DNA of 64,000 nucleotides from Planctomycetota bacterium (GCA_015075515.1 JABTUE010000002.1:533478-597477), one strand, 5' to 3'; shown: positions 20,342 through 57,546, counted from the stretch's first letter. Made by a program: numbers and translations. Notes: generated from the letters alone by a model not told the origin.

Positions 20342-20346
20342 CCTTC

Positions 20347-20398
20347 CAGCCCGCCCGCAGAGCCAAGTCTGGCAATGCGGGCGGGCTGGTTTCTGTAT
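20347..20398 (+). terminator. Rho-independent terminator-like hairpin after tRNA-Val
   Basis: Perfect 13-bp inverted repeat CAGCCCGCCCGCA...TGCGGGCGGGCTG followed by GTTTCTGTATC. Confidence 0.5.
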
Positions 20399-20505
20399 CG
20401 CGCATCCCCACTGTCACCAAGATTGTCACCAAGGTTCGGACGAATCTGCCCCATTCTACGGCACCCATCGCCGAGAACCGATGCGGCCATGGGCGAGGTA
20501 CGAAG

Positions 20506-21569
20506 TCAGGGTCGGTGTCGCCAAGCCAGTATCCTCTCCAGCTGATCCTGCAGAGCTTGGATACTGAGGGGCTTTGTTTCAGCTTTGGATCGCCGGCGAC
20601 GGGCTGAATCAGGTTTCCCTCGGCCACGTTTGGGTTTGGACAACACCTTGGCACGCTGCTTTTCGTAGTTCTGGTAGTACTGCTGCTTCTGCGTCTGCCG
20701 CCGCAGATAGGCCTTTTCCAACTCGGCAAGGCGGGCGGGTTCGTCCTTGCCATGCAGCCAGTTGGCCAGGTCCGGCGACCGCCCATCCGGCACAACCACA
20801 AACAGCCGCCAGGTCCGACGATCAGCCACGCGTTGTTGCTGTAGGCCTGGGTCATCGGCTCGTCGTGGAAGAACCCGGTGAGCATCGCGCCGAGTTCCGC
20901 AGAAACCGATGGCCGATCCGTGATTGGTCGAGATTGCAAGTTCAGTCCCCGCCCAATCGGGTACAGGTAGCCCTTGAGGCCGGCGTGCCGTGTCGGCACA
21001 GCCCGCGAAATCAGCCCCCAGGAAGTTACTTCGCCAATGCAGCGGTGCGTCTGACGTAATAGTCGATCGACGGGAGCCAGCAGCCGGGTGAGCTTGGGAT
21101 CGCAAACTCCATCGCTGCGAGGCCTGTAGACGTCGTCCCGCCACACAAAGATTGCCTTGCCTGAACGAGAACCAATCCTGGCATCAAAGCTCGTACACCA
21201 GGTTCCCTTCAGGGCGGACTTGGGACCTGTATTGGGCAGTGCACGCCCTGGCAGGAACACCTTGCGCAGCCAAACCGAAAACTGCGACGCTACCGATCCC
21301 CGCCGGCGGCCGGCCCTTCTTGCATAGTCTTTCTCCGCGCGCCCTGTAGGACCTGAGAACAGCTCCAGTTCACGGACTTCCCCGACCGCCAGGGCCGCAA
21401 GACGAGAGAAGACAAACGCGGCGGGGTCGGCAAGCCGTTGCAGCTGGCTGTCGGTCAGGTCGCCCCTGCCGGCCAAGTGGGCCAACTTTCTCAGTTCATT
21501 AGCCACGCTGTAGGCCCGCTCTTGAGGGCTGCATGGTACGGGCGCAGCCGGGTTGGTGTCCACCGGCAC
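20506..21569 (-). pseudogene. Frameshifted hypothetical gene (possible replication/mobilisation protein of integrated element)
   Basis: Protein-like N-terminal part in the 21569-start frame and C-terminal part (KDEPARLAELEKAYLRRQ...) in the 21144-start frame; the 3' tail of the long ORF runs antisense through tRNA-Val and is spurious. Confidence 0.35.
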
Positions 21570-21656
21570 TGAATCCGCGAAATTCAGCCCAACTCAGCTT
21601 GAAAAAGTGGCCCTTGGCCACACTTTTGAATTGGAGCCCTTGCCTGGAGGAAGCCC

Positions 21657-22454
21657 ATGGGACTCGCCACAGCCCCTCCTCCTTCAATAATGGTAGCCAA
21701 TTCTACCAACTTCCAACAAACGGTCGGTCTGACCAGGCGCGCCCAAGAGGTGCTTACGGCGATCCAAGCCGGCAATGCACTGCTTTCCCGCCACGCCTCC
21801 CCGGTAGAGACCAAACGCAAGGCCCGTGCCCTGAGGAAGCGTGGTTCCAGATCGTACCGCGGGCTCGGCAGCTGTTCGGATTGCGAAATCCGCGCTACGG
21901 AACAGGGTTTCGAGCTGGTACTCCAGCACTGCAACACCGCAGTTTGTCCGCGTTGTGCTCGCATCAAGGCCAAGTCGGTCGCCCGAAAGTACCGTCCTGC
22001 ATTGATCGCAGCCATTGAGGCCGGCCATCAGCTTTCCCGCATCACCCTCACTCAGGTTCGGCGCCCGGATGAACCGGCATTGGATGCCTTACAGCGCCTG
22101 CGTGCCTGCCTGGCAAGATTCGGGACGCTGCGGCCCGATGGGGCCACGCCGGTGATCCGTAGCGACAACGGGCTGATCTTCCAGAGCAAGCGCTTCCGGG
22201 CTGCCTGCAAGGACTATCGGCTCAGCCAAGAGTTCGTCACGCCCTACACGCCCGAGCAGAACGGCATGATCGAAAGGTTCTTCCGCAGCCTGAAAGAGGA
22301 GTGCGTGTGGCTTGAGAACTTCACCGACTTTGAACAGGCCAGAGCAGCCGTGGCAGGCTGGATCCGGTTCTACAACTCAGAGCGGCCGCACCAGTCATTG
22401 AACTACATGAGCCCGGAACAGTTCCGGGCCCAACAAGCAAACCAGGTGGCTTGA
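21657..22454 (+). pseudogene. Chimeric/truncated DDE transposase: zinc-ribbon-containing N-terminal part fused to C-terminal half of an rve (IS3/IS481-type) integrase core
   Basis: C-terminal SDNGLIFQSKRF...TPYTPEQNGMIERFFRSLKEE...YNSERPHQSL is the conserved distal half of the DDE integrase core; the first two catalytic-region blocks are absent; upstream CSDC...CPRC cysteine pairs. Confidence 0.5.
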
Positions 22455-22527: not shown

Positions 22528-23562
22528 ATGGTTCTTGGCACAGCAGTGCTTGATGCCGCGTCGTCGGCTTCGAGCGGCAATTTGATTTCCGGGCGGCTTT
22601 CGGCGCGGCCGGATGCCCGTTTGGGCCAGCTTCTTGGCCAGCTTGAGGCGCTGGCTGTCCAGCAGCGCGACATTGCCGTCAACACGCGCGAGCTGGCGAT
22701 GGCGCCTGAGGATAGCGCGCTCGTGGTTGGTCGCGCCGAGCGTTTTGGCCTGCGCGAGCATGCCTTTGCCCAGCTCGCCACGAAGTTGCAGATCCCCGCG
22801 CATTACCTGCGGCGTTGCGCGCCCGAACTGCGCGCAGAGAACGTCAATCGCTGGCTGCGCGAGGCCGACCGCGACGTGATGCTGCGCTTCGAGGGCGGCG
22901 AAGTCCGCGGCGTGCTCTCGGGCGCGTACCGGGCGATCAACCACCAGGACATCCTGGGCTGGCTGGAATCGCGCTTGGGCGAGAACACCCCGGTGCGCTA
23001 CGAGCTCACCGAGGGCTACCTCGACTTGCAGGTCGTCGGCCCAGCTGAAGCCGGTATGCCGGAGGCCCGCCGCGACCCGCTGCACCGCGGTCTGCACCTG
23101 CGCAACAGCGAAGTCGGCCTGGCACGGGTGAACATCAGCGCCCTGGTGTACCGCACGATCTGCCTCAACGGACTGGTCATGGGTGCCGGCCGCTGGGCTT
23201 ACCAGCGACGGCACGTCGGCAAGGCCGAGATTGCCGATCAGGTGCGCGAGGCCTTTGACCACGCGATTGAACTGTCAGCCCAGGCCGTGACCGCCTTCGC
23301 CGGGACGCGGGGCATCCAGGTCAAGGAACCCGAAAAGGCGCTGGACCGCATCGTCACGCGTTACGAACTGGCCGAAGACGAGGGTGCGGCAATCCACCGC
23401 GCCTGGCAGGTGGAACCGGGCAAGACCCTCTTCGCGGTGATCAACGCCCTGACCCGCGCCGGCAACGACAACGCGCTCGCCCTGGAAAGCCGTCACAAGC
23501 TGCAAACCCTCGGTGGCCGCCTCTCTGACTTGTCGGCAACGGGCCGATGGATAGATAACTAA
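22528..23562 (+). CDS. DUF932-like phage/plasmid-associated protein
   Basis: LRNSEVGLARVNISALVYRTICLNGLV matches the NS..G....R..C.NG block remembered for DUF932; GGAGG RBS 6 nt before ATG at 22528. Confidence 0.5.
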   Translation: MVLGTAVLDAASSASSGNLISGRLSARPDARLGQLLGQLEALAVQQRDIAVNTRELAMAPEDSALVVGRAERFGLREHAFAQLATKLQIPAHYLRRCAPELRAENVNRWLREADRDVMLRFEGGEVRGVLSGAYRAINHQDILGWLESRLGENTPVRYELTEGYLDLQVVGPAEAGMPEARRDPLHRGLHLRNSEVGLARVNISALVYRTICLNGLVMGAGRWAYQRRHVGKAEIADQVREAFDHAIELSAQAVTAFAGTRGIQVKEPEKALDRIVTRYELAEDEGAAIHRAWQVEPGKTLFAVINALTRAGNDNALALESRHKLQTLGGRLSDLSATGRWIDN

Positions 23563-23634: not shown

Positions 23635-24036
23635 ATGAGAGGTTTGGCACATGTGCTGCTAGCCATTCTCGCCGTGGTCGCGCCAGTCGCCGGCGTGTGT
23701 CGCTGCGATCCTGGCGCGATTTTCCGGTCTCTGTTTGCGTGCCACGAACACACGACCGGCCACGTTTGCAGCCATGGCGACCATGGACAAGGCGGCCAGT
23801 CGCAAGACACGCCAGAGCGAAAGTGCCCGATTACACTGAGCTGCGCTGACGGACTTGACTTGTTGATAGAGCCTGCGCCGGGATTGTTCGTAGAGCGCGA
23901 GGTGTCGACTTACTGCACTACAGCGGCCTTTGCAGGCAGCCTCTATCCGACGCACGCGCCAAGGCCCAACAGGGCATCGCAGGCTCATCCGCCGCCAGTC
24001 TTGACTCACTTAAGACTTTGTCGCTTCCTCATCTGA
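23635..24036 (+). CDS. Possible small Cys/His-rich secreted protein upstream of efflux operon (doubtful)
   Basis: Hydrophobic N-terminus, CRCD, HEHTTGHVCSHGDHG cluster; may be non-coding. Confidence 0.15.
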   Translation: MRGLAHVLLAILAVVAPVAGVCRCDPGAIFRSLFACHEHTTGHVCSHGDHGQGGQSQDTPERKCPITLSCADGLDLLIEPAPGLFVEREVSTYCTTAAFAGSLYPTHAPRPNRASQAHPPPVLTHLRLCRFLI

Positions 24037-24102
24037 TCTCGCACGCGCCGATGCCCTCGGCATCGGGTTCAATGTTGGTGCCTCTTCTGCCTGAGGTGAC
24101 CC

Positions 24103-25476
24103 ATGCGTGCTGCATTCAAAATTGTCACATGCATTTCCTTCGCCGCGCTGTCCGCGTGCACGGCAGTCAATACTGAGAGGTCGCGACTGGACGCCACGCC
24201 AGCGCCGGACTTCAAGGCGCTGTCGTCGGCCCTGGACGATGTGCTTGCGGATCCTGCCAGGTCGCAGGCACCAGAGGCCCTGTCGGCTGCGTCGCTGGCT
24301 GACATCCAGCGAATGTCCCAGACGCGCAGCCCCTTTCTTGCCGCAGCCTACTACCGCTGGAAGGCCGCGGTGGCGCTGATCGACACGGCCTTTGAGATGC
24401 CTGAGGGCATGGTCGAGTACCGCGAGTTCATGCAGGCGGAGAGGGCCAACATTCGCCTCATGGATGAACGGCGCAGCGTGATGCTGTCCCAGATGTTCCC
24501 CAATCCCGGCAAGGTGGTGGCCCGCCAGGACATGCTGGCCGCTGAAGCTTCCGCCATGGCGGAGGAGTTCAGCGCCGTGCGGCGCGAGTTGCGTCGGCAG
24601 GTGACGGCCGCCTATGTGGACATCCAGTCGCTGGATGCCAGGGCTGAGGTGCTGCGGCAGCTGGTGGCACTGGCCAGCGGGCTGGAGGCGCTGATGGAGC
24701 CCATGGTCGAGACCGGTCAGGCCACGCAGGCCAGCCTGCTGCGCATGCAGGTCGAGCGCGAAGAGATGCAGAGCGATCTGGCATCGTTGTCTTTGCGAAG
24801 ACCGGCTCTAGTGAAGGTGCTGGAAGCGGCTTCGGGCGTCCGTCTCGACCCCGCGGTGACGGTGGACGCACTACCCGAAGTCCGTCGCGCGGTTGTGCCC
24901 GGCCGGGCTGAACAACTGGTTGCCCTGGAAACGCACCCCATGCTGCAAATCGCCCACGCGCAGGCACGGGTGGCGGACGCAAAGCTGATTGAATCGAGGT
25001 GGATGTGGGTGCCGGACTTCTTCGTCGCGGCAGAATGGATGCAGATGAACGTGCCGGGCGACATGCCCTTTGAAAGCGCCGTGGCGTTTCGCGTCGGCAT
25101 CACGATTCCCTGGAGTTTCGGCGCCAATGCTGCCCGCAGCAACGCCGCCGAGGCGGATCGCATGGCAGCCCTGCTGGTGGTTGCCCAGAAGCGGCTGGAT
25201 CTTCAGGCCGAGCTTGACGCCATGCTGTTCGAACTGGCCGATGCCGAACGCATGCTGCGCCTGCTGGGTACCAGCATCTTGCCCAAGGCCCGCCAGGCCT
25301 TGGAGTTGATCCAGGGTGATTTTTCCGCGGGCCGTGCCGGCCTGACTGATGTGATCAGCGCCTGGCAGGCCTGGCTGGGGGGCGAGCTGTCGCTTATCCG
25401 GGCTCGTGCGGAAGCCCTGAAGTCTCGTGCGGCCGTGGAGTCATTGACCGGACTGACCTTGAAAGATGAACCATAA
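24103..25476 (+). CDS. Outer-membrane efflux protein (TolC/CusC/CzcC family) lipoprotein
   Basis: Lipobox FAALSAC; two repeated helical halves of the OMF family; heads a four-gene efflux operon. Confidence 0.75.
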   Translation: MRAAFKIVTCISFAALSACTAVNTERSRLDATPAPDFKALSSALDDVLADPARSQAPEALSAASLADIQRMSQTRSPFLAAAYYRWKAAVALIDTAFEMPEGMVEYREFMQAERANIRLMDERRSVMLSQMFPNPGKVVARQDMLAAEASAMAEEFSAVRRELRRQVTAAYVDIQSLDARAEVLRQLVALASGLEALMEPMVETGQATQASLLRMQVEREEMQSDLASLSLRRPALVKVLEAASGVRLDPAVTVDALPEVRRAVVPGRAEQLVALETHPMLQIAHAQARVADAKLIESRWMWVPDFFVAAEWMQMNVPGDMPFESAVAFRVGITIPWSFGANAARSNAAEADRMAALLVVAQKRLDLQAELDAMLFELADAERMLRLLGTSILPKARQALELIQGDFSAGRAGLTDVISAWQAWLGGELSLIRARAEALKSRAAVESLTGLTLKDEP

Positions 25477-25487
25477 GGAGCAAGTAC

Positions 25488-26138
25488 ATGCGCAATGTAA
25501 TGGGATTTGTCACCGCCTGCGCCTTCATGTTGCTGGTGGGTGGCCTGATTCGAGGCGCGGCACTCAGCCGCGTTGACGCTCCGCTGGCCGAAAGCCAGCA
25601 GGATCAAAGCCAGCACCAGGGCCACGGCGCTGACACACCTGCGCAGCAACCCAAAGCAGAAGAGCCAACGAAGGCCGAGCCTGAGAGCAAAGAACCCGGG
25701 AAGGACAAGCCTGAGCCGGAGGCCGTCAAAGAACTTGAGAACGCCAACGATCCTGTGAGCAGCAAAGCGGCAGGCGACAAGCCCACAGTGCTGGAACACA
25801 AGGGCTGGAAAGTACGGTTTGAGAACGAGGCCAACCGCGACAAGTTCCTGAAGAAGCCGATCCGTTACTACGCTGCCCTGTCTCTTGAGCCCACCAGTGA
25901 CGGCAAGCTTCTGAAGGTGGACCCTTCCGGCTACGAAAAGGCTGCGCCCGCAACCTGCGGCATCATGGGCGGGGATATTGACCCTGACGGTGACGTGTTC
26001 GTCCTGCATCGAGGCTTCAAGGTCTACTTCTGCTGCTGGAGCGGCTGCGGCGACGAATTTGTGGCCAACGCTGCCAAGTACTACGACCATTACGGATTGG
26101 TCGAGAAGGACGGCAAGCTGGTGCGAAAGAAGGAGTAG
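25488..26138 (+). CDS. Periplasmic YHS/TRASH-domain metal-binding protein
   Basis: Signal-anchor, low-complexity Lys/Glu/Pro linker, two YHS-like modules (HKGWKVRFENEANRDKFLKKP; HRGFKVYFCCWSGCGDEFVANAAKYY). Confidence 0.5.
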   Translation: MRNVMGFVTACAFMLLVGGLIRGAALSRVDAPLAESQQDQSQHQGHGADTPAQQPKAEEPTKAEPESKEPGKDKPEPEAVKELENANDPVSSKAAGDKPTVLEHKGWKVRFENEANRDKFLKKPIRYYAALSLEPTSDGKLLKVDPSGYEKAAPATCGIMGGDIDPDGDVFVLHRGFKVYFCCWSGCGDEFVANAAKYYDHYGLVEKDGKLVRKKE

Positions 26139-26140
26139 CC

Positions 26141-27709
26141 ATGCCCGAAGAATCCCCAGCCGAAAAGCCGACGGATCCGGCGCGCCCCGGCTTCCTGAAG
26201 CGCCGCGCCTTTCTTGCTTCGGTTCTGGGTGGCACCGTGGCCGGCCTGGCTGGTGCCATGCTGGTGCCTCGTGACTGGCTGCTTGCGCCGGGAAAGTCTG
26301 CGGTCGACCCACATGCGGGCCATGGGTCCGGGGGAACCAAGGTCTTCTATGCCTGCCCCATGTTCTGCACGAGGCTGGACAAGCCCGGCGATTGCCCGGT
26401 GTGCGGCATGACGCTGGAAATGTTCGTGGACACAGGCGAAGTGCTGCCGCTGGACGATCGCGACCGCTGGGCCATGGGCATTCGCGCCGAGGCCCCAAAG
26501 CGGCGGATGCTCGCCCGTGAAATCCGGACCTTGGGCCAATTCGAGGTTGATGAATCCCTGGATCGGGTTGTCAGCGCATGGGTCGCGGGCCGGATTGACC
26601 GCATGCACGCGGACTACACGGGCGTTGCGGTGTCGGAAGGCGATCACTTGTTCGACTTGTACTCGCCGGACCTCTACTCAGCCCACAGGGAGTTAAAGGT
26701 TGCCCAGGACGCCGCAGCCGGCGGTACTCCCGGTGCCGACAAGCTGCTGCAACTGTCCCGCGAGAAACTCCGGCGGCTGGGACTGACCGCGCCTCAGCTG
26801 CAGCAGCTCGAAGGTCGCCCCGCCGATTCACCGACCTTCACCGTGCCCAGCCCCATCTCGGGTGTGGTTCTGGAGAAGATGGCACGCGAAGGCCAGTACT
26901 TGGAGACAGGCATGCCGGTGTACCGCGTGGCCGACCTGTCGCGCCTCTGGCTGATGTTGAGCATTCACGAGCGCGACCTTCCCTTTGTCGTGCTGGGCCA
27001 GCCGGTCCGTTTCGAGCTTGGGGGAGTTGCCCCCGAAACCGTCAGCGGGCAAGTCAGTTTCATTGACCCCACGCTCGACACCATGACACGCACAGCCCGT
27101 GTGCGTGTCGAGGTTCCCAATCAGTCCGGCCGACTCAAGCCCGGCATGTTTGGTACGGCGACGATTCTGGCCTGGCTCGCGTCAGACGGGACGGTGGCCC
27201 AGCCGGCACTGGCCGGCCAGTACGCCTGCCCGATGCACCCGCTGCAGTGGTCCGAAGTCGCAGGGGAGTCTTGCCGGATCTGCGGCATGTCTATGCGGCG
27301 ACGTGCCCCTCAACGCGGCAGCCCGCAGGCGCATGTTCTTTCAATCCCGCGCGAGGCCGTTCTCAGCACGGGGCGGCGTCACGTCGTGTACGTCGAGTGG
27401 TGGGCCAAACGCAAGCCGGACGGCACGGTCAGCCACAACCACGCCGGCCTGGCCGAGAAGCTGCAGAGGCCCGAGTACCAGGGCTTTGAAGTCAACCTGG
27501 GCGCGCTGTGCGCCGAATACCACGAACTGAAGGACGGCACACTTCATCGCGGTGACGAGTACTACGCCGTGCGTTCCGGCCTGCCATCGGGGGTACGGAT
27601 CGTGACAAACGGGCAGTTCCTGATTGACAGCCAGATGGAACTTGCGGGCAAACCCTCGCTGTTCCGGCCGGAAGGCGGGTCGGCGGCGGCAACCCACAGC
27701 GGTCATTGA
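26141..27709 (+). CDS. Heavy-metal efflux RND periplasmic adaptor (CusB/CzcB family) with two Cys-rich metal-binding modules
   Basis: FYACPMFCTRLDKPGDCPVCGM and YACPMHPLQWSEVAGESCRICGM motifs flanking a membrane-fusion-protein beta-barrel/lipoyl region. Confidence 0.8.
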   Translation: MPEESPAEKPTDPARPGFLKRRAFLASVLGGTVAGLAGAMLVPRDWLLAPGKSAVDPHAGHGSGGTKVFYACPMFCTRLDKPGDCPVCGMTLEMFVDTGEVLPLDDRDRWAMGIRAEAPKRRMLAREIRTLGQFEVDESLDRVVSAWVAGRIDRMHADYTGVAVSEGDHLFDLYSPDLYSAHRELKVAQDAAAGGTPGADKLLQLSREKLRRLGLTAPQLQQLEGRPADSPTFTVPSPISGVVLEKMAREGQYLETGMPVYRVADLSRLWLMLSIHERDLPFVVLGQPVRFELGGVAPETVSGQVSFIDPTLDTMTRTARVRVEVPNQSGRLKPGMFGTATILAWLASDGTVAQPALAGQYACPMHPLQWSEVAGESCRICGMSMRRRAPQRGSPQAHVLSIPREAVLSTGRRHVVYVEWWAKRKPDGTVSHNHAGLAEKLQRPEYQGFEVNLGALCAEYHELKDGTLHRGDEYYAVRSGLPSGVRIVTNGQFLIDSQMELAGKPSLFRPEGGSAAATHSGH

Positions 27710-27721
27710 TAGGGCGACGGC

Positions 27722-49863: not shown

Positions 49864-49896
49864 ATATCGTGTACATATCGTGTACATATCGTGTAC
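49864..49896. repeat. Three perfect tandem copies of 11-bp ATATCGTGTAC
   Basis: Read directly at 49864-49896, ~45 bp upstream of the integrase start codon; candidate integrase arm-type binding sites. Confidence 0.7.
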
Positions 49897-51701: not shown

Positions 51702-52105
51702 CGATCGTGCTGACTGATCCGTCTCAACCCGGACGCGGCAAGAAAGGGGCGGATGTGGATTGGGGGGATGGCAGAACTTATGTGCCGCCATCCGTCGCGG
51801 AGCTAATCAAGGACGTATTCACGAACGGTGCTGGCTGGCACCCGGCTGCCGCATTCATCGGTCGTGACCGGGGTGAAGTTGTTGACGTCGTGAAGTACCC
51901 GGGTCGCAAAAGATACCAAGAGGGGCTCAAGAAGTTGATCCCGAAGTTGGCAAGGCTTGTGAACGAGGACAAGAGCAGCAAGCGCCCCAGTAAAGAGCCG
52001 CGCACCAACCGAAGGTACGTGCTCAAGGGCGGCGTGCGGGTCGAAGTAGTCGACTGTCGCTCACGCAAGGCCAAGGCCCAGCAAGATACGCCGGACACCA
52101 AGTAA
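51698..52105 (+). CDS. Hypothetical protein
   Basis: 135-aa ORF overlapping upstream stop by 4 nt; no motif. Confidence 0.4.
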   Translation: MTIVLTDPSQPGRGKKGADVDWGDGRTYVPPSVAELIKDVFTNGAGWHPAAAFIGRDRGEVVDVVKYPGRKRYQEGLKKLIPKLARLVNEDKSSKRPSKEPRTNRRYVLKGGVRVEVVDCRSRKAKAQQDTPDTK

Positions 52106-52562: not shown

Positions 52563-52772
52563 ATGACGCTTGTCCAGGCAGCGGCCGCGCTTGGTCAACA
52601 CGTCAGCGTCAAGGTGCTCCGGGCAGAAGTGAAAGCAGGGCGCCTGCGCTGCTACCGAGTACGCCCCGGAGCAAACTCGAAAATTCTGCTCAGTGAGTGT
52701 GACCTCGCGGACTGGCTTCAGAACGTCGCTGGCAGTCGCCAGAGGGCGTTTCGCCAACGCGGCGCGCACTAG
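52563..52772 (+). CDS. Excisionase/AlpA-like helix-turn-helix DNA-binding protein
   Basis: 69 aa, LMTLVQAAAALGQHVSVKVLRAEVKAGRLRCYRV resembles the Xis/AlpA HTH_17 fold; position between integrase and primase genes. Confidence 0.45.
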   Translation: MTLVQAAAALGQHVSVKVLRAEVKAGRLRCYRVRPGANSKILLSECDLADWLQNVAGSRQRAFRQRGAH

Positions 52773-52791: not shown

Positions 52792-54837
52792 ATGGCTAAG
52801 AAGACAAATCCACCAGAGTCGTTCGAAGGGAATATTGAAGACCTTTATGAAGACGGACAACTACAGCCCAGTTCGGCCCAAGGCGACCCAGGCACATCCC
52901 AGGGTACGATGACGCCAACTTCGGACTCGCCTACGGAGTCTGCCGCAGAGGACGGCTCGAATCAGACTGCGGCTGCCGCCCCGGCCAACTCATCTACCTC
53001 CCCCAAGGACAACCCGGTCATGGCGGAGCATGACGATCAGGGTGCCCCTTCAGGAGTGGCCGGATCTGACGGCTTGAGAGCTGAGGGCGCCAATACAGGT
53101 GCCGAAAGTAACCCCGCTGACAATGAAGCTCCCCAAGGCTCCGGTGCGGATGTGGATGTGGATGTGGATGGGCCGGATGCCGCCGCTGCAGAAGGCCCTC
53201 CAAAGCCGCCGGAGGTCACGCCAGCTGTTGCTGAAGACGCACAACACATGAGCGTGGCGAATGACCACTCGGCGTCGGAAAGCCAACCTGCCGGCCCGGA
53301 CGCGAATAGTGTCGGTAGTGCTGCATCAGGAGTAGTCCCTGCAGGTTGTGCTGGACGTGGACAATCCCATCTAACCTACGACCTGCCCGTATCCGATCGC
53401 ACATCGGAGTTCGTCGACTTGATGAAGGACTCCCACAGAGTGTTTCGCGCCGAACCAGGCGGTACGGCTCCGGGCAAGCGCATACTATTGCTCGTCGGAA
53501 CGCCCCCGCATGTGCGCTTGCGCATGGCGGCGCCTGCAGAGTTGCGCCACGACCTTGCGAACTACATTGATGTCTATTCGGAAAGACTCAAGGGCTACAT
53601 TTCACTCCCTATGGAGGAGACGTTGAGCGTTCTGCACAGTGTGCACCTTTCCAGACTGCCTGCGATCACCCGTGTCGCCAACGGTGTGGCTTACAATGGC
53701 GACTACATCCAGCTGTCCGCCGGTTACGACCCGGCCACGCGGACGTATGTCACCCACAGAGTTCAGGCTGACGCGCAGGCAGTTGGCGCATTTCGACAAC
53801 TGTGTCGCGGATTCAAATTCAAGGACGAGGCCAGCTTCGTCAACCTGCTGGGATTCCTGCTCATTGCGATGCTGGGTCCCCTGATTGTGCGCGCGCCAGG
53901 CCTGATGATCATGGGCGACCTGCTGGTCGGTACTACCGCGGGCAAGACGACCTTGGCTCTGATGTTGAAGGTCATCATTGACGCTTTCTGCGCACCCCGA
54001 ATCTACACATTCCCCCACGACGAGAAGGAGTACGTCAAGTTGCTCGGCGGCATCCTCAGCGAGCCGAATGAGCGAGTTGTGGTGTTCGACAATGTCAAGC
54101 CAAAAAACGGTAACTCATACTTGGAGAATCAAACCTTTGAACAGCAGATAGGCGCCAGAGTACTGAATGTGCGTGTTCTGGGTACAAGCCATCAAATAGC
54201 CCGCATCAATGACCTTCTGTTTGTTTGTACGGCCAATGGCCCCTCCATGGCGATCGATTTTGCCAACCGATTTATCCACAGTCATTTGGAAGTGCCGGAC
54301 GGCGGAGTGCGTCCGGAGCCAATGATTGACAAGGTAAAGGAGGCCGAGGAACAACGCGAAAGGGTTCTCGCCGAGCTGGCCTACATGGTCCAAGTATGGA
54401 AGGAGAAGGGGGCGCCCTTGTCAACCAAGTGCAAGCACCGCGACCAAGCCATGGCCAGTTTGATTGGCGGCATCATGGAAGCCAACGGATACGATGCCTT
54501 CCTGGCCAACCACAGTTCTGCCCTTGCCGGGGCTACCGGTCCGTTGGTCGAGACCTACTACACCTTGGCGTCGCTGAACATGGCAAAGAAAGGTGGGACC
54601 TTCACTGCCCTTGAGTGGGTCAACCACGTTCGCGACAACAAGGCGCTAAAGCAGCACTTCCCCGCCACGGTCTCACTTCACAGCCAGCGTGCCCGCGCCA
54701 ATACCTTCCTGCAGCACGTTGCCCAAAACCCGGTAGTACTGGACGGCATCCGCTACACACTCACGGTGATCAAGAACAAGCGCAACAACAACTACTTCGT
54801 CACGGAGGAAGCCCTGCCCGGCCACGAGGCCGAGTAG
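52792..54837 (+). CDS. Phage/plasmid primase P4-family C-terminal domain plus P-loop NTPase protein, acidic disordered N-terminus
   Basis: ANGVAYNGDYIQLSAGYDPATRTYVTH...LLGFLL...GDLLVGTTAGKTTL matches the remembered P4-primase C-terminal/D5-like NTPase pattern including Walker A; AGGAGAAG RBS before ATG 52792. Confidence 0.5.
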   Translation: MAKKTNPPESFEGNIEDLYEDGQLQPSSAQGDPGTSQGTMTPTSDSPTESAAEDGSNQTAAAAPANSSTSPKDNPVMAEHDDQGAPSGVAGSDGLRAEGANTGAESNPADNEAPQGSGADVDVDVDGPDAAAAEGPPKPPEVTPAVAEDAQHMSVANDHSASESQPAGPDANSVGSAASGVVPAGCAGRGQSHLTYDLPVSDRTSEFVDLMKDSHRVFRAEPGGTAPGKRILLLVGTPPHVRLRMAAPAELRHDLANYIDVYSERLKGYISLPMEETLSVLHSVHLSRLPAITRVANGVAYNGDYIQLSAGYDPATRTYVTHRVQADAQAVGAFRQLCRGFKFKDEASFVNLLGFLLIAMLGPLIVRAPGLMIMGDLLVGTTAGKTTLALMLKVIIDAFCAPRIYTFPHDEKEYVKLLGGILSEPNERVVVFDNVKPKNGNSYLENQTFEQQIGARVLNVRVLGTSHQIARINDLLFVCTANGPSMAIDFANRFIHSHLEVPDGGVRPEPMIDKVKEAEEQRERVLAELAYMVQVWKEKGAPLSTKCKHRDQAMASLIGGIMEANGYDAFLANHSSALAGATGPLVETYYTLASLNMAKKGGTFTALEWVNHVRDNKALKQHFPATVSLHSQRARANTFLQHVAQNPVVLDGIRYTLTVIKNKRNNNYFVTEEALPGHEAE

Positions 54838-54965
54838 GCGCACGTTCCCGGTGACCGGAGGCCTTCCGGCTTCCGGTCACCGGGGCGGGAAAGCCCTCAG
54901 AAATGCAGTGAGTGCAGTGGTCTCAGTTGTTTTTGCACTGCGGCCCCGGCGATCAAGGAGAAGCC

Positions 54966-56552
54966 ATGAACGATGTCCAAGCGGCAGAACGCGTACGGGG
55001 TCAAGAGACCGACGTTGCGGGCGTCGATGCCAAACAGCTTCCAGGTTCCAGCTTGCATGGCGATGGCAAGCGTCACCCTGTCGGCTTCAGCATGAGTGTT
55101 GTGGGCGTCAGGCGGACAGCAGGGGCAGGGGAGGGCTTGGTACCTGTGGAACTGGACGAAATCTCAGCCGAGGCGGTGGTCGGGGCTCTGGATGACGCCG
55201 GTCAATACGACGGCGGCGCGGTCATCCACATGTTCTCACCTCACTTGTTTGCCAAGCGGGTCTATGTGGGAACTTCCATGGTGGTGTGCCGCGTCGTCCG
55301 CCTCGATGGCGAGGGTCGAGAAACCGACCTCACCGACGTTGACGTGGACCGACTGAAGTCTGTCTTGCACGATGGGCAAAACTACCACATCGCGATGCCG
55401 GGGCGGCAGGAACTGATCGTGTTGCTGCTAATGAGCCGTCCGGTGCTGCCGCGCCAACAGCCCATCCATGACACCGGCCTCAAGGGCCTGTTCAACCGCG
55501 CCGCGCTTGGCGCCAGCGCACTCCTGGAAGGCGCCATCGCCGCGGCGGGCATGCAGATCGCAAGTGAAGCGGTCTTGCCCGCCTCCAACCGCCACGGAAC
55601 CCCGAGCTATGAGAAGGGTGAAGAAAATGGGCGCGGCTTCCGCAGGGCGCTGAACTTCAAGCGTGTCTCCGGGCTGGCGGCTGTCCCGGTTCTGGGGTTC
55701 CGGCAGGAGGTTCAAGTGCCTCTGGGTTCCAACATACAGGACGAGCGCTTTGGCCATCCGGCCTTTGTGTCCCGTCGCGCCCTGTACTCGCCGGAAGAGC
55801 TGGCGTCCTATGCGCCCGCGCCGGAAAACGCGCTGGACCAGGACGAGGCCACGTCATTTCTGGCTCGCCTGCGCTCCCCTCAGTACCGCACCGAGCTGAT
55901 GCAACGCTTTGCGGCTACACACGGGGAACTCGCCTCTTTCGGCGGTTTGGCGGCACGCCTGCAACCCGTGCCGGCGGAGGAGCTTGAGAAGGCGCTCGGG
56001 GACATGGCCGCATTCTCCGAGAACCTGGCGATGGTGAACAAGATGCGCACGGACGCCGGGCTGCCCCCGGTGGGTTACCGCAGCCAGCCCTTCGGCATGG
56101 CGCACTCCAACGACGAGGTCATCAGCGATCCCATCGAGCTGTTCCGTTTCAAGGCCAAGAGCATGTTCCTGGGCGGTGAGTTTCATGCCGCTCTGCTCAG
56201 CGGTGGTCCGCCCACCGAACTCGTGGTGCCCATGGACCAGCTCGGCTGGCGTCCGCTTGAAGGTGGACTTCTGCGTGGCGGCGTACCATGGGAAGCCAGC
56301 GGCCCCCGTGTGGCGTGGATCGAACCGGGCAAGGATCAACTGCTGCTCGATCTGCAGGCTGTGCTCCAGCATTTCCGCCAGACCGGGCTCAAGCGCTGTG
56401 TTGACCTCTGCGTCAGACCGGCGCACTTCGCGCAGTTGATGGCTGGCGCCGGTCTGCTTTCGGGAACAAGCACGTCCGCCACGACAAGATCCATCGAGTC
56501 AACTCCCCGCTCCGTGTACCGCCTGAAATTCAAGAGCTTCTTTCTTGGCTAG
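54966..56552 (+). CDS. Hypothetical protein
   Basis: 528-aa ORF starting at ATG 54966 with AGGAG RBS; no recognised motif. Confidence 0.4.
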   Translation: MNDVQAAERVRGQETDVAGVDAKQLPGSSLHGDGKRHPVGFSMSVVGVRRTAGAGEGLVPVELDEISAEAVVGALDDAGQYDGGAVIHMFSPHLFAKRVYVGTSMVVCRVVRLDGEGRETDLTDVDVDRLKSVLHDGQNYHIAMPGRQELIVLLLMSRPVLPRQQPIHDTGLKGLFNRAALGASALLEGAIAAAGMQIASEAVLPASNRHGTPSYEKGEENGRGFRRALNFKRVSGLAAVPVLGFRQEVQVPLGSNIQDERFGHPAFVSRRALYSPEELASYAPAPENALDQDEATSFLARLRSPQYRTELMQRFAATHGELASFGGLAARLQPVPAEELEKALGDMAAFSENLAMVNKMRTDAGLPPVGYRSQPFGMAHSNDEVISDPIELFRFKAKSMFLGGEFHAALLSGGPPTELVVPMDQLGWRPLEGGLLRGGVPWEASGPRVAWIEPGKDQLLLDLQAVLQHFRQTGLKRCVDLCVRPAHFAQLMAGAGLLSGTSTSATTRSIESTPRSVYRLKFKSFFLG

Positions 56553-56559
56553 GAGAGAC

Positions 56560-57546
56560 ATGGACATCCTCGACAAGAACCAAGGCTATGACGCGCTCTC
56601 CATTTGGGAGCTCGCCAAGTCCTTGTACAAAGTTCGGATCTTTCGAGGCCACGTCGCCAACGAGGCTGTCGTGGTGTGGCGGGTACCAGACAAGCACGAG
56701 TGCGCGGTCAGGGTGCAAGTGCAGGACCTGCCCCAGCTGGCGTGGCGCTTTGCGGTGATGCCCGGCGTGTGTCTCCCGGGGGGTGCCCAGATCGCGCCAC
56801 AATTCGATGATTGGCGTCCAGTGGTGCCTTCGCTGCACGAGCTAGCGCTGTTGCCGGTGGTCAGGCATATTGCCCGCGGCCTCTGCTGGCCAAGCGGCGG
56901 ATTGCAATGCGGCCCCGGCTATATCCCGGAAAAGCAGCTGCTCGTACTTGAGCCCGAAGTCGTAAAGACGAAGTTCGCTAACTCCGCGGCCGAACTCGCT
57001 GCCAGGCTGCCGTTTTCGAATGCAGTGGCGGCGCGGAAGTGGCTGGAATGGCTTGCGCTGGCGGTCCAAGTCCCGTCGCAGGCCCCACCCTTGGTTATTG
57101 CGGGCAGTGCGGTTGAACCCGTGAAGTCCATCGTGGCTGACGTGTCGAGCGCGCTGGTCGAGGGCAAACCGCCTTTCCGCCTCAACCGATCGGGTCAGAG
57201 CGACCGACGACTTCGTGTTCAGCTGGAGCTTGCCTACCGTAGTTGTCTACGTGTGGCCATACTGCACCAGCCCCAGTTCGGGGCGCATTTTGATCGAGTG
57301 CTTGAACTGCTGCTTCGCGGACGAACCAGCGGCAATCTGCACAGCCCCGAGGTACTTGTCCTGGTGGTGGGAAAGTCGTACTCGCCATCACCGTTGCTGG
57401 ACAGCGGGCAATGGCTGGAGGTGGAGACGCCGCATACTAAGCTCCGCCCGTCCATCACGCGACATGCCATGACCACCCGGCAACAAATCTTGCAGGAGAT
57501 CGTGGCTCAGCGCTTTGCGACCGCCCCGACTCGTGAGCGTGAGTGA
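56560..57546 (+). CDS. Hypothetical protein
   Basis: 328-aa ORF starting at ATG 56560 (AGGAGAG RBS), about 10 nt after the stop of the upstream gene. Confidence 0.4.
   Translation: MDILDKNQGYDALSIWELAKSLYKVRIFRGHVANEAVVVWRVPDKHECAVRVQVQDLPQLAWRFAVMPGVCLPGGAQIAPQFDDWRPVVPSLHELALLPVVRHIARGLCWPSGGLQCGPGYIPEKQLLVLEPEVVKTKFANSAAELAARLPFSNAVAARKWLEWLALAVQVPSQAPPLVIAGSAVEPVKSIVADVSSALVEGKPPFRLNRSGQSDRRLRVQLELAYRSCLRVAILHQPQFGAHFDRVLELLLRGRTSGNLHSPEVLVLVVGKSYSPSPLLDSGQWLEVETPHTKLRPSITRHAMTTRQQILQEIVAQRFATAPTRERE

What the first reader, a model, noticed from the sequence alone, without database searches (positions are those of the whole stretch)
20342..57546. ~37 kb mosaic accessory region inserted 3' of tRNA-Val
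From the 3' end of tRNA-Val to the ~0.9 kb noncoding stretch before the PDZ lipoprotein, essentially every gene is of mobile, cargo or defence character. These are a frameshifted rep-like gene, a chimeric transposase remnant, DUF932, the Cus/Czc operon, a GHKL ATPase, IS630, IS5, the defence cassette, an XRE regulator, an integrase, an excisionase and a P4-type primase. Local GC is visibly patchy. The integrase is about 29 kb from the tRNA-Val junction and is next to a different tRNA-like fragment, suggesting at least two nested or tandem integration events rather than one element.
Basis: partly seen in the sequence, partly recalled or inferred. Interest (0 to 1): 0.55.

Follow-up and report, generated by a model that had tools for sequence, protein, structure and literature searches.

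The report
Two tRNA-linked genomic islands, not one
The flagged 37 kb in this uncultured Planctomycete holds a decayed metal-resistance island at tRNA-Val, an older block of phage-defence genes, and the first 8 kb of an intact-looking ~31 kb integrative island in tRNA-Gly that runs past the window; this is ordinary biology, and the island ends can now be placed exactly.

Summary
The proposed right boundary (57546) is wrong, and the span joins three different things.

1. 20342-33286 is a decayed, integrase-less remnant of an integrative element. Its tRNA-proximal end abuts tRNA-Val(GAC). It carries DUF932, a Cus/Czc-type RND efflux operon and a GHKL ATPase. A fuller relative sits at tRNA-Gly in a distant Planctomycete, with 77-90% nucleotide identity against ~63% identity for a core protein.

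2. 33287-49690 holds IS630, IS5 and an Hma defence system with an embedded, frameshifted HEC-04-like gene. At least 45307-49690 is the native 3' flank of tRNA-Gly(CCC), because a 95%-identical strain has it next to an intact tRNA-Gly.

3. 49691-49737 is the displaced 47-nt 3' part of tRNA-Gly(CCC). From 49738 a ~31.3 kb element runs past the window end to about 81 kb. It encodes an integrase, an excisionase-like protein, an SF3 helicase, glycosyltransferases and a type III restriction-modification system. No conjugation or capsid genes were flagged.

This is a new member of a known kind, and interest is modest.

The parts
20265..20341 (+). tRNA-Val(GAC). This is the target gene at the left end of the decayed element ('E-Val').
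   Evidence: ARAGORN and Rfam. The same desaturase-tRNA-Val pair occurs in 4 of 5 distant relatives.
20342..20496 (+). tRNA-proximal arm of E-Val. It has a terminator hairpin (20350-20386) and two direct GTCACCAAG repeats (20413-20433).
   Evidence: Sequence and motif count. Positions 20342-20455 are conserved next to tRNA-Val in L013 and L011. The layout matches the tRNA-proximal arms of the tRNA-Gly elements in L031 and L033.
20518..21506 (-). Frameshifted homologue of a 333-aa end-proximal gene of unknown function.
   Evidence: tblastn of the L033 333-aa protein: aa 1-258 at 84% and aa 234-330 at 87%, in two frames. No Pfam or PHROG hit.
21657..22454 (+). Chimeric ORF. The first 155 aa come from a 412-aa Rep_1-like protein, fused to the C-terminal rve_3 fragment of an IS3-type transposase.
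   Evidence: Pfam rve_3 at 1e-21. 79% identity to L033 412-aa residues 1-155. The full-length L033 protein hits Rep_1 at E 8e-4, below the cut-off.
22528..23562 (+). DUF932 protein, a family marker of these elements.
   Evidence: Pfam DUF932 at 23.1 bits against a cut-off of 23. phrog_1362 at 1.7e-32. 81-82% identical to homologues in L011 and L033.
23635..31198 (+). Cus/Czc-type heavy-metal RND efflux cargo: a 133-aa ORF, OEP (24103-25476), a 216-aa ORF, a membrane-fusion protein with HMBD (26141-27709) and an RND pump (27722-31198).
   Evidence: Pfam OEP, HlyD_D23 + HMBD and ACR_tran. 77% nt identity to L033 across the block, and a CusA homologue in a distant genome is 90% identical.
31348..33305 (+). 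GHKL ATPase (581 aa) and a 71-aa ORF whose 3' end is cut by IS630.
   Evidence: Pfam HATPase_c_3 / HATPase_c. 90% nt identity to L033 2682-4647, ending at window 33288.
33287..34505 (+). IS630-family insertion sequence (inverted repeat TAGTGGTTC, flanked by TA). It marks the end of homology to the related element.
   Evidence: Pfam HTH_32 + DDE_3. Ends read. A sister MAG contig breaks here.
34523..35032 (+). Orphan 169-aa ORF between the two IS elements. Its segment has GC 0.52.
   Evidence: No hit in Pfam, NCBIfam or PADLOC. Composition.
35267..36178 (-). IS5-family insertion sequence (two ORFs, DUF4096 + DDE_Tnp_1) with perfect 22-nt inverted repeats.
   Evidence: pair I18. A sister MAG contig starts at 36176.
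36631..48731 (-). A 232-aa ORF and an Hma defence system. The system comprises HmaC (37379-40303), a 193-aa ORF, HmaB (40894-43818), an embedded frameshifted HEC-04-like ABC ATPase (43815-45277) and HmaA (45270-48659/48731).
   Evidence: PADLOC: HmaC 6.7e-125, HmaB 5e-101, HmaA 2e-194, HEC-04 6e-32 and 7e-12. HEC means Hma-embedded candidate (bioRxiv 10.1101/2024.01.29.577857).
48995..49690 (+). Native 3' flank of tRNA-Gly: an XRE-like 99-aa ORF, a 48-aa ORF (49369-49515) and the tRNA terminator hairpin (about 49640-49690, read on the minus strand).
   Evidence: The same DNA at 95.4% identity lies next to an intact tRNA-Gly in L028.
49691..49737 (-). Displaced 3' 47 nt of tRNA-Gly(CCC), from the anticodon stem to CCA. 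This is the left att repeat of the tRNA-Gly element ('E-Gly').
   Evidence: Identical 47 nt occur within the intact tRNA-Gly of L031 and L033. Homology to L028 stops exactly at 49737. Short-read (Logan) contigs break at 49708 and 49720, which equals a k-1 = 30 overlap on a 47-nt repeat if those assemblies used k = 31, an assumption from my own knowledge.
49866..49896 (+). Three tandem ATCGTGTAC(AT) repeats upstream of int. They are probably arm-type integrase binding sites.
   Evidence: 4 matches in the window against 0.11 expected by chance. Two further copies lie in the opposite arm of the element in L031.
49942..51207 (+). Tyrosine integrase of E-Gly (421 aa).
   Evidence: Pfam Phage_integrase at 2e-12. 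phrog_1 at 1e-28. The exact protein occurs on 9 contigs.
51228..52105 (+). A 292-aa gene of unknown function, split in the window by a 1-nt deletion at 51691.
   Evidence: Comparison with L019 and L020.
52563..52772 (+). Excisionase-like small HTH protein (69 aa).
   Evidence: Pfam HTH_17 at E 0.002, below the cut-off. Called as a gene in sister contigs.
52792..54837 (+). A 681-aa protein. The N-terminal ~225 aa are low-complexity and the C-terminal 458 aa form an SF3 (D5/SaPI Pri-Rep-type) helicase.
   Evidence: AlphaFold model with pLDDT 90.8. All top Foldseek hits are primase-helicase SF3 modules: ASFV PrimPol, MPXV E5, PriRep1, SaPI5 and NrS-1. Distant relatives are fused to DnaG-type, Toprim or AEP primase domains. 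No primase domain is present here.
54966..64000 (.). Interior of E-Gly up to the window edge. It holds a 528-aa ORF, a 328-aa ORF (ending at 57546), a 0.9 kb gap, a PDZ lipoprotein (58494-60203), a PDDEXK_4 / PDC-S26 nuclease (60253-61653), and a 1016-aa GT2 protein on the minus strand (61625 to beyond the window).
   Evidence: In sister contigs the element continues with rSAM, GT2, two ankyrin ORFs, PDDEXK_1, a DUF932-like ORF, a DrmD-like SNF2, a type III Mod and a type III Res, ending at window-equivalent ~81,057.

Best explanation
The flagged span lies between two convergent tRNA genes, and each of them has been used as an integration site by elements of one Planctomycetota family of tyrosine-recombinase islands.

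1. E-Val (20342-33286) is a dead remnant.
- It keeps the tRNA-proximal arm (terminator plus two short direct repeats) and an end gene, now frameshifted.
- It keeps the first 155 aa of a Rep_1-like gene, now fused to an IS3 transposase fragment.
- It keeps DUF932 and the cargo, which is a Cus/Czc-type RND efflux operon and a GHKL ATPase.
- Its integrase end and the displaced tRNA-Val fragment are gone. The most likely cause is IS-mediated deletion, because homology to the fuller relative stops exactly at the IS630 end (inferred).

2. 34506-49690 is older acquired DNA.
- It is dominated by an Hma restriction-like defence system with an embedded, inactivated HEC-04 gene.
- At least 45307-49690 was already the 3' flank of tRNA-Gly(CCC) before the last event (shown).

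3. E-Gly starts at 49738 and is about 31.3 kb long.
- It integrated by site-specific recombination into the anticodon-stem-to-3'-end segment of tRNA-Gly(CCC).
- The original 47-nt 3' part of the tRNA, with its terminator, was displaced to 49691-49737.
- The element supplied a new identical 3' part with its own terminator at the far end, at window-equivalent ~81,058-81,104.
- Shown steps: the att repeats, the empty site, the occupied far end and the gene inventory.
- Inferred steps: that the ATCGTGTAC repeats in both arms are integrase arm sites, that the element can still excise using int and the small HTH protein, and that after excision it replicates with its SF3 helicase.
- Its cargo is defence and cell-surface genes. 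These are a PDC-S26 nuclease, a DrmD-like SNF2 with a type III restriction-modification system, glycosyltransferases with a radical-SAM enzyme, ankyrin proteins and a PDZ lipoprotein.
For: E-Gly.
- The 47-nt tRNA-Gly 3' fragment and terminator are at 49691-49737.
- L028, a 95.4%-identical strain, has an intact tRNA-Gly. Its homology to the window ends exactly at 49737, and a DUF2075 gene lies on the other side.
- L031 comes from a MAG that is 99.98% identical to the window in the core. It shows DUF2075, then an intact tRNA-Gly, then a different 3' flank with a terminator and two ATCGTGTAC repeats.
- Three ATCGTGTAC repeats lie beside int in the window.
- Contigs from several samples break at 49708 and 49720. 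Contigs of 31,380 and 20,859 nt both end at window-equivalent ~81,086.
- NCBI protein numbering places int at MBE7491684 and DUF2075 at MBE7491705, which leaves 20 genes between them and matches the inventory.
- Copies of the element that are 99% identical sit next to a variant tRNA-Gly T-arm in other samples.

E-Val.
- L033 comes from a genome whose desaturase is only 63% identical to the window's. It carries a DUF932 gene, a GHKL gene, a Cus operon, a 412-aa gene and a 333-aa gene at 77-90% nt identity, ending at an intact tRNA-Gly.
- In the window the 333-aa and 412-aa homologues keep the same orientation relative to the tRNA 3' end and start 155 nt from tRNA-Val. The equivalent gap in L033 is 164 nt.
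- L011 has DUF932 (82%) and PDDEXK_1 modules downstream of its tRNA-Val.
- L014 has a 52-nt tRNA-Val 3' repeat 4.4 kb from the intact gene.

Composition.
- The 4-mer distance to the core rises at 20 kb and stays high to 64 kb.

Principle.
- An island splits a tDNA and restores it, so the regenerated gene and the displaced fragment mark the island ends (Islander paper, PMC4383910; abstract as listed).
Against: - The right end of E-Gly was never read on the same contig as the left end. It is reconstructed from sister assemblies, contig lengths and accession numbering. About 245 nt between L036 and L031 were not seen.
- E-Val has no integrase, no displaced tRNA-Val fragment and no empty-site relative. 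Insertion at tRNA-Val is therefore inferred from end architecture and homology, not demonstrated.
- Part of the tRNA-Val-proximal arm (20342-20455) is also conserved in L013, where ordinary metabolic genes follow. That stretch could be native tRNA-Val flank rather than element DNA.
- Block order differs between the window and L033, so which arrangement is ancestral is unknown.
- Nothing shows that E-Gly is still mobile. Its 292-aa gene is split in the window.
Confidence: 0.8

Rival explanations
1. One reading: one ~37 kb composite accessory region (20342-57546) anchored at tRNA-Val and built by nested or tandem integrations, ending at the 0.9 kb gap before the PDZ lipoprotein.
For: Accessory gene content runs throughout the span. 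Composition shifts at tRNA-Val. An integrase lies next to a second tRNA fragment.
Against: There is no compositional return at 57.5 kb. Contigs that begin at the tRNA-Gly fragment run uninterrupted for 31.4 kb through 57546. The tRNA-Gly fragment points the wrong way for an element lying to its left, and an empty-site strain keeps 45307-49737 next to an intact tRNA-Gly.
Confidence: 0.05
2. The block at 20342-33286 did not integrate at tRNA-Val. It is a piece of a tRNA-Gly-type element (as in L033) that reached its present place by IS-mediated transposition, inversion or recombination, and its adjacency to tRNA-Val is secondary.
For: The only complete relative seen (L033) sits at tRNA-Gly. No integrase or tRNA-Val fragment is present. 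IS3, IS630 and IS5 remnants flank the blocks, and block order is permuted relative to L033. tRNA-Gly is only 29 kb away, in inverted orientation.
Against: Homology to L033 stops at 20497, and the 155 nt up to tRNA-Val are not the tRNA-Gly-type arm. They form a distinct arm with its own repeats, and part of it (20342-20455) is shared with the tRNA-Val loci of L011 and L013. L011 has family genes (DUF932, PDDEXK_1) directly downstream of its tRNA-Val. The spacing and orientation of the end genes relative to the tRNA match the canonical layout.
Confidence: 0.15
3. E-Gly is a phage satellite or defective prophage (P4- or PICI-like), mobilised by a helper phage, rather than a plain or mobilisable genomic island.
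For: The order int, small HTH (xis/AlpA-like), SF3 helicase at one end matches P4 and PICI layouts. The helicase fold matches the SaPI5 primase-helicase and PriRep1.
Against: At 31 kb it is large for a satellite. None of the 21 genes has a capsid, terminase, portal or packaging-redirection domain in the pre-computed Pfam lists. No primase domain was found. A scan of IMG/VR with the integrase found no relative.
Confidence: 0.12
4. The compositional difference and 'accessory' look of 34.5-49.7 kb do not reflect horizontal acquisition. This is resident core DNA of the species that happens to encode defence genes.
For: A strain at 95% nucleotide identity keeps HmaA, the XRE gene, the 48-aa ORF and the terminator in the same place. 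No mobility gene other than the IS elements lies inside the block.
Against: Its 4-mer distance to the core is 29, against 12-20 among core windows, and it is closest (9.6) to E-Gly. GC is 0.60 against 0.65. The interior of the Hma locus differs between the two strains, with HmaB at 77% and different embedded genes. Hma systems are known to be mobile and modular.
Confidence: 0.2

Closest known systems
tDNA-integrated genomic islands with tyrosine integrases, as catalogued by Islander (PMC4383910). The anticodon-loop/stem class of att sites described by Williams in 2002 is recalled from my own knowledge.
   Same: E-Gly has a tyrosine integrase next to one end. A 47-nt direct repeat equals the 3' part of tRNA-Gly from the anticodon stem to CCA. 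The tRNA is regenerated at one end and a displaced fragment sits at the other. An empty site exists in a related strain.
   Different: The integrase lies next to the displaced fragment rather than the regenerated tRNA. Each tRNA-proximal arm supplies its own terminator and a pair of short direct repeats. The hosts are uncultured Planctomycetota.
Integrative mobilisable elements and non-conjugative replicative islands that carry int, xis and a primase-helicase. Examples are P4-like satellites, SaPI/PICI Pri-Rep modules and the Prochlorococcus elements of bioRxiv 10.1101/2020.12.28.424599; that these are called tycheposons and have this layout is from my own knowledge.
   Same: The module order is int, small HTH, SF3 helicase, and the helicase fold matches SaPI5 Pri-Rep, PriRep1 and D5. 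The rest is cargo, and no T4SS is present.
   Different: No primase domain is detectable. No capsid-hijacking genes were found. The element is larger at 31 kb. The relatives at tRNA-Val and in L033 carry a weak Rep_1-like (rolling-circle type) gene instead.
Hma defence system (HmaA SNF2/DUF3883 helicase, HmaB DUF1156 methylase, HmaC DUF499 ATPase) with embedded HEC genes (PMC8565338, listed; bioRxiv 10.1101/2024.01.29.577857, read).
   Same: All three Hma proteins are present with strong PADLOC scores, and a HEC-04-like ABC ATPase is embedded between hmaA and hmaB.
   Different: The HEC-04-like gene is split by a frameshift. A 193-aa ORF of unknown function lies between hmaB and hmaC. A sister strain carries two unrecognised genes (362 and 202 aa) in the embedding position.
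Cus/Czc-type heavy-metal-efflux RND operons carried as island or plasmid cargo.
   Same: The operon has an OEP, a membrane-fusion protein with an HMBD metal-binding motif and a CusB-type barrel-sandwich domain, and an RND pump, all in one operon. It is horizontally shared among distant Planctomycetota at 77-90% identity.
   Different: No two-component regulator is adjacent, and a 216-aa ORF is inserted (its L033 homologue has a faint YHS hit). The substrate is unknown.

Membership tests
tDNA-integrated genomic island (applied to E-Gly, 49738 to ~81,057) | Tyrosine recombinase encoded near one end | tested here: met
   Pfam Phage_integrase at 2e-12 and 47.7 bits against a cut-off of 27.1. phrog_1 integrase at 1e-28.
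tDNA-integrated genomic island (applied to E-Gly, 49738 to ~81,057) | Regenerated intact tRNA at one end and a displaced 3' fragment at the other, as direct repeats | tested here: met
   The fragment is at 49691-49737. An intact tRNA-Gly with the identical 47 nt and an element-type flank is in L031. The two ends were read on different contigs; contig lengths and accession numbering link them.
tDNA-integrated genomic island (applied to E-Gly, 49738 to ~81,057) | Unoccupied target site in a related genome | tested here: met
   L028 has an intact tRNA-Gly(CCC). Its 95.4% identity to the window ends exactly at 49737, and DUF2075 lies on the 5' side as in L031.
tDNA-integrated genomic island (applied to E-Val, 20342-33286) | Integrase, plus a displaced tRNA-Val 3' fragment at the distal end | tested here: not met
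   No second integrase is present. No copy of the tRNA-Val 3' part was found with up to 3 mismatches or by blastn-short in the window plus L026. E-Val is therefore filed only as a remnant of such an island.
tDNA-integrated genomic island (applied to E-Val, 20342-33286) | Homology to a complete element of the same kind, with higher identity than the genomic background | tested here: met
   L033 shows 77-90% nt identity over four blocks and ends at an intact tRNA-Gly. The core desaturase of that genome is only 63% identical.
Integrative and conjugative element (ICE) | Type IV secretion genes, coupling protein and relaxase | tested here: not met
   None of the 21 E-Gly genes, and none of the E-Val or L033 genes seen, has such a domain in the Pfam scans or pre-computed lists. 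Only a weak Rep_1-like hit exists in L033.
P4-like satellite / PICI | Primase or primase-helicase replication protein | tested here: inconclusive
   An SF3 helicase fold is present. No primase domain was found by Pfam, NCBIfam, PADLOC or PDB sequence search. The N-terminal 225 aa are low-complexity.
P4-like satellite / PICI | Genes for redirecting helper capsid or packaging, and dependence on a helper phage | not testable with these tools
   No such domain was flagged, but many ORFs are unannotated. Helper dependence needs experiment.
Hma defence system | HmaA helicase, HmaB methylase and HmaC ATPase encoded together | tested here: met
   PADLOC: HmaA 2.2e-194, HmaB 5.2e-101, HmaC 6.7e-125, all on the minus strand at 37379-48731. 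Pfam: DUF499, DUF1156, SNF2 + NOV_C.
IS630 family | DDE_3 transposase with an N-terminal HTH, terminal inverted repeats and TA target duplication | tested here: met
   Pfam HTH_32 and DDE_3. The ends read TA-GTGGTTC...GAACCAC-TA. The transposase is in two ORFs (33348-33806 and 33803-34495).
HME-RND (Cus/Czc) efflux system | Outer-membrane factor, membrane-fusion protein and RND permease; metal substrate | tested here: inconclusive
   All three components are present, with an HMBD motif in the fusion protein. The substrate cannot be tested with these tools.

The most novel reading that the evidence does not exclude
The window documents a previously undescribed family of Planctomycetota integrative elements.
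- Members share a backbone of DUF932, PDDEXK_1 and small ORFs, plus a replication gene near one end of the element: a Rep_1-like gene by the tRNA-proximal arm in the E-Val/L033 branch, or an SF3 helicase by the integrase in E-Gly.
- Members swap att specificity between tRNA-Val(GAC) and tRNA-Gly(CCC). They do so by exchanging the integrase together with a tRNA-proximal arm cassette, which consists of the tRNA 3' part, its own terminator and a pair of arm repeats.
- They shuttle metal-efflux and defence cargo between hosts whose core proteins are only about 60% identical.
- The replication helicase would be a primase-less branch of the D5/Pri-Rep SF3 family with an acidic, disordered N-terminus.
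Probability: 0.4. Interest if true: 0.4.

Novelty: new member of a known kind. Interest (0 to 1): 0.3.

Why it matters
Mobile elements of Planctomycetota are hardly characterised, because most members are uncultured.

This locus gives a precisely delimited example. It has a 47-nt att site, an empty site, an occupied site, candidate arm sites and a full 21-gene inventory. It also shows that the same element family moves Cus/Czc metal-efflux genes and defence systems between distantly related Planctomycetes. The defence cargo comprises a type III restriction-modification system with a DrmD-like helicase and a PDC-S26 nuclease. An Hma system with an embedded HEC-04 gene and a PDC-S41/DUF2075 gene sit beside it, on the two flanks of the target tRNA-Gly.

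In practice, the work corrects the island boundaries that annotation of this genome would otherwise inherit. The integrase and att pair could serve as a candidate site-specific integration tool for Planctomycetota genetics.

None of this changes how genomic islands are thought to work.

Tried and rejected
1. Searches for a second copy of the tRNA-Val 3' end found nothing. I tried a 25-mer and a 30-mer with up to 3 mismatches, and blastn-short over the window plus 7.6 kb beyond.
2. I looked for an empty tRNA-Val site among near-identical contigs. All 13 contigs carrying the neighbouring 561-aa protein are either window-like or break inside the tRNA. The desaturase's 90% cluster holds no variant strain.
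3. Distant relatives from genome contigs share only the desaturase-tRNA-Val pair, so synteny could not define an island-free state.
4. I tried to walk to the right end of E-Gly with a partial SNF2 query. The search returned only ~60%-identical partial proteins, so that search was wasted.
5. An exact look-up of the 1153-aa HmaA ORF failed because the called start differs (1129 aa).
6. The 681-aa protein gave no hit in Pfam, NCBIfam, PADLOC, or PDB by sequence or profile. A single-sequence AlphaFold model was useless, with pLDDT 35. Only the alignment-based model worked.
7. A scan of IMG/VR with the integrase found no relative.
8. I first read the conserved ~115 nt after tRNA-Val as native flank. 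I now favour an element arm, because L013 also shows a by-eye C-terminal match to the 333-aa gene. tblastn did not confirm this, so it stays open.
9. Contig breaks inside tRNA-Val at 20313/20314 could mean an att repeat. I rejected them as evidence because tRNA sequences shared between organisms in a metagenome give the same effect.

Full report
**Source and setting**

The window is near-identical to contigs of Planctomycetota MAGs. It is 100% identical over 21.7 kb to GCA_048499555.1 contig JASNZQ010000003.1 and 99.995% over 21.3 kb to contig JASNZQ010000009.1. Exact protein look-ups place all tested window proteins on one 987,207-nt MAG contig, with accessions MBE7491660 onward. The sister MAG's contigs break at window ~33284 and 36176. 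These are the outer ends of the IS630 and IS5 copies, as expected for multi-copy repeats.

**Checking the observation**

ARAGORN and Rfam find tRNA-Thr (9541-9615) and tRNA-Val(GAC) (20265-20341), and no other intact tRNA. The region upstream of tRNA-Val holds ordinary genes:
- a guanylate cyclase;
- an MMPL protein;
- a 3-beta-HSD-type protein;
- a TatC-domain protein;
- HAD and PIG-L proteins;
- a CarF-type lipid desaturase.

Core GC is 0.65. The 4-mer distance of 4-kb windows to the rest of the core is 12-20. From 20 kb to the last window it is 23-36 and never returns. The left boundary is therefore real, and the proposed right boundary at 57546 has no compositional support.

1. The defence cassette is an Hma system. 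PADLOC gives HmaC 6.7e-125, HmaB 5e-101 and HmaA 2e-194. A HEC-04-like ABC ATPase sits between hmaA and hmaB, split into 174-aa and 313/363-aa ORFs. HEC stands for Hma-embedded candidate (bioRxiv 10.1101/2024.01.29.577857).
2. The frameshifted gene at 20518-21506 is a homologue of an unannotated 333-aa protein. The weak Rep_1 similarity (E 8e-4, below the cut-off) belongs to a 412-aa protein. Only its first 155 aa survive, as the N-terminus of the chimeric ORF at 21657-22454, whose C-terminus is an rve_3 transposase fragment.
3. The 'P4-type primase' (52792-54837, 681 aa) has no hit in Pfam, NCBIfam, PADLOC or PDB sequences.
   - A full HMMER search found 1923 distant relatives. Among the ten scanned, four carry N-terminal DnaG-type, Toprim/zinc-ribbon, AEP or DUF3854 domains.
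   - An alignment-based AlphaFold model of the C-terminal 458 aa has pLDDT 90.8.
   - That model matches only SF3 helicase modules of primase-helicases: ASFV PrimPol, MPXV E5/D5, PriRep1, SaPI5 and NrS-1, with E 6e-7 to 1e-4.
   - The protein is therefore a D5/Pri-Rep-type helicase with a low-complexity N-terminus and no detectable primase domain.

**The element in tRNA-Gly (E-Gly)**

On the minus strand, 49691-49737 reads GCTTCCCAAGCAGGTGGTCGAGGGTTCGAACCCCTTCGCCCGCTCCA. This is the anticodon-stem-to-CCA part of tRNA-Gly(CCC), and an intrinsic terminator follows it. The 5' half of the tRNA is missing, and element DNA starts at 49738. Several independent results fix the structure.

1. Empty site. 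L028 is a JGI metagenome contig found through the exact 99-aa XRE protein. It is 95.4% identical to window 45307-49737 without gaps. It has an intact tRNA-Gly(CCC) whose homology to the window stops exactly at 49737. It then continues into a DUF2075/Schlafen-type helicase gene (PADLOC PDC-S41).

2. Occupied far end. The >=90%-identical DUF2075 protein P0241 occurs in the window's own lineage, as MBE7491705 on the 987-kb contig. It also occurs in GCA_023384155.1, a MAG whose core is 99.98% identical to the window. Its contig L031 shows DUF2075, then an intact tRNA-Gly with the identical 47 nt, then a different 3' flank. That flank has another terminator and two ATCGTGTAC repeats. The same 9-mer occurs three times in tandem at 49866-49896, just upstream of int, against 0.11 matches expected by chance in the whole window. 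I read these as arm-type integrase sites in the two arms of attP. This is an inference.

3. Size.
   - Short-read (Logan) contigs from several samples start at 49708-49710 or end at 49720. These positions equal a k-1 = 30 overlap on a 47-nt exact repeat if the assemblies used k = 31, which I assume from my own knowledge of those assemblies; no tool output states it.
   - Two contigs (31,380 nt from 49708, and 20,859 nt) both end at window-equivalent ~81,086.
   - This puts the right repeat at ~81,058-81,104 and the element at ~31.3 kb.
   - NCBI numbering agrees. Int is MBE7491684, the helicase 687, PDDEXK_1 698, the DUF932-like gene 700 and DUF2075 705.

4. Inventory, in order:
   - int;
   - a 292-aa ORF, split in the window by a 1-nt deletion at 51691;
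   - a 69-aa HTH_17-like ORF;
   - the SF3 helicase;
   - 528-aa and 328-aa ORFs;
   - a 0.9 kb gap;
   - a PDZ lipoprotein;
   - a PDDEXK_4 nuclease (PDC-S26);
   - a GT2 protein of 1016 aa, a radical-SAM enzyme and a second GT2;
   - two ankyrin proteins;
   - a 182-aa ORF, PDDEXK_1 and a 108-aa ORF;
   - a DUF932-like gene;
   - a DrmD-like SNF2 helicase (1e-189) and a 148-aa ORF;
   - a type III Mod (1e-183) and a type III Res (8e-124).

No T4SS, relaxase, capsid or terminase domain is flagged.

Copies that are 99% identical lie next to a tRNA-Gly with a different, compensated T-stem in other samples. This suggests recent transfer between hosts.

**The remnant at tRNA-Val (E-Val)**

No integrase and no tRNA-Val repeat exist here. 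However, cluster look-ups showed CusA and the GHKL ATPase at >=90% identity in the genome of L013, whose desaturase is only 63% identical. Fetching that locus (L033) revealed an element ending at an intact tRNA-Gly with the same 47 nt. It contains, relative to the window:

| L033 block | Window coordinates | nt identity |
|---|---|---|
| DUF932 | 22663-23564 | 84% |
| GHKL + 69-aa ORF | 31323-33288 | 90% |
| 134-aa ORF + Cus operon | 23589-31165 | 77% |
| 412-aa and 333-aa genes, next to the tRNA | 22107-20497 (inverted) | 86% |

In both genomes, reading outward from the tRNA 3' end, the order is an arm of 155-164 nt, then the 333-aa gene pointing at the tRNA, then the 412-aa gene pointing away. 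The arms themselves are not homologous. The window's arm has a terminator and two GTCACCAAG repeats (20413-20433). Part of it (20342-20455) is shared with the tRNA-Val loci of L013 and, with a variant repeat, L011.

L011 carries DUF932 (82%), PDDEXK_1 and small ORFs of the family downstream of its tRNA-Val. L014 has a 52-nt tRNA-Val 3' repeat 4.4 kb from the intact gene, around four cargo genes.

I conclude that 20342-33286 is the tRNA-proximal part of a family member that integrated at tRNA-Val and has since decayed. The signs of decay are a frameshift, truncation of the Rep-like gene by an IS3 fragment, permutation of the GHKL block, and loss of everything beyond the IS630 copy. That IS cuts the last 11 nt of the 69-aa gene, exactly where homology to L033 ends. 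The alternative is that the block was translocated from a tRNA-Gly-type element. It is not excluded, and I rate it 0.15.

**The middle (33287-49690)**

This stretch contains:
- IS630;
- an orphan 169-aa ORF in a GC-0.52 segment;
- IS5;
- a 232-aa ORF;
- the Hma system;
- the XRE gene and a 48-aa ORF;
- the tRNA-Gly terminator.

Its 4-mer profile is far from the core (distance 29) and very close to E-Gly (9.6). In L028 the hmaA-proximal part is conserved at 95%, but hmaB is only 77% identical. The embedded position there holds two unrecognised genes (362 and 202 aa) instead of HEC-04. I read this as an older, still-diversifying defence island on the 3' side of tRNA-Gly. Where it meets the lost end of E-Val cannot be determined; the two IS copies are the likely scar.

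**Comparison with known systems, and verdict**

- E-Gly meets the defining tests of a tDNA-integrated genomic island (Islander principle, PMC4383910).
- It fails the ICE test.
- It resembles P4, PICI and similar int-xis-helicase islands in its replication and recombination module, without meeting their other criteria.
- Hma, HEC-04, IS630, IS5 and the RND operon are ordinary members of their families.

The finding is real but mis-bounded. It is a new member of a known kind, useful mainly as a cleanly resolved example from a poorly studied phylum.

Noticed in passing
window 51691: The window lacks one C (CTTCC|AAAG against CTTC|AAAG) relative to two otherwise identical assemblies, L019 and L020. 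This splits a 292-aa E-Gly gene into 157- and 135-aa ORFs. It is either a real inactivating mutation or a consensus error in the source assembly.
   Followed up: partly
window 43815-45277 (minus strand); L028 2633-4354: The gene embedded between hmaA and hmaB is a frameshifted HEC-04-like ABC ATPase in the window. In a 95%-identical strain the same slot holds two genes (362 and 202 aa) with no PADLOC hit. These are possible new Hma-embedded defence candidates.
   Followed up: partly
window 52792-53460: The SF3 helicase carries an N-terminal extension of about 225 aa that is acidic, Pro/Ala/Ser-rich and low in complexity, in place of a primase domain. Distant relatives of the helicase module are fused to four different primase types: DnaG-type, Toprim_2 with a zinc ribbon, AEP-TOTE and DUF3854.
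   Followed up: partly
window 20408-20440; L013 9600-9635; L011 around 9650: A tandem pair GTCACCAAG-N3-GTCACCAAG lies about 70 nt after tRNA-Val. It is conserved in genomes whose proteins are only ~60% identical. It is a candidate integrase arm site, but L013 has metabolic genes beyond it, so a native regulatory role is not excluded.
   Followed up: partly
L014 5245-9811: A distant relative has a 4.4-kb integrase-less islet carrying zinc-ADH, LtrA, SnoaL and MarR genes. It is flanked by the intact tRNA-Val and a 52-nt repeat of the tRNA-Val 3' part.
   Followed up: partly
L021-L025, first 30 nt (window-equivalent 49708-49737): Copies of E-Gly that are 99.0-99.3% identical, from other sequencing runs, adjoin a tRNA-Gly fragment with a different T-stem (GTGGG...GAG instead of GAGGG...GAA). 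This suggests the element also resides in another host lineage.
   Followed up: no
window 34506-35266: A 761-nt segment between IS630 and IS5 has GC 0.52 and essentially no 4-mer correlation with the core (r 0.05). It encodes a 169-aa orphan protein with no hit in Pfam, NCBIfam or PADLOC.
   Followed up: partly
window 57547-58493: A stretch of about 0.95 kb inside E-Gly has no convincing ORF and no Rfam match. Its function (a regulatory region, an origin or a decayed gene) is unknown.
   Followed up: no
L028 9432-11426; L031 5548-7542 (5' side of tRNA-Gly, outside the window): The native 5' neighbour of tRNA-Gly is a DUF2075/Schlafen-type helicase that scores 2e-271 on PADLOC candidate PDC-S41. 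Defence genes therefore flank this tRNA on both sides even without E-Gly.
   Followed up: partly
window 11386-17548: The core upstream of tRNA-Val holds a cluster of an MMPL transporter, a 3-beta-HSD/epimerase, a 561-aa protein with a TatC domain and a HAD phosphatase. Next to it are a PIG-L deacetylase and the CarF-type desaturase. This is an unusual lipid-related neighbourhood that I did not examine further.
   Followed up: no
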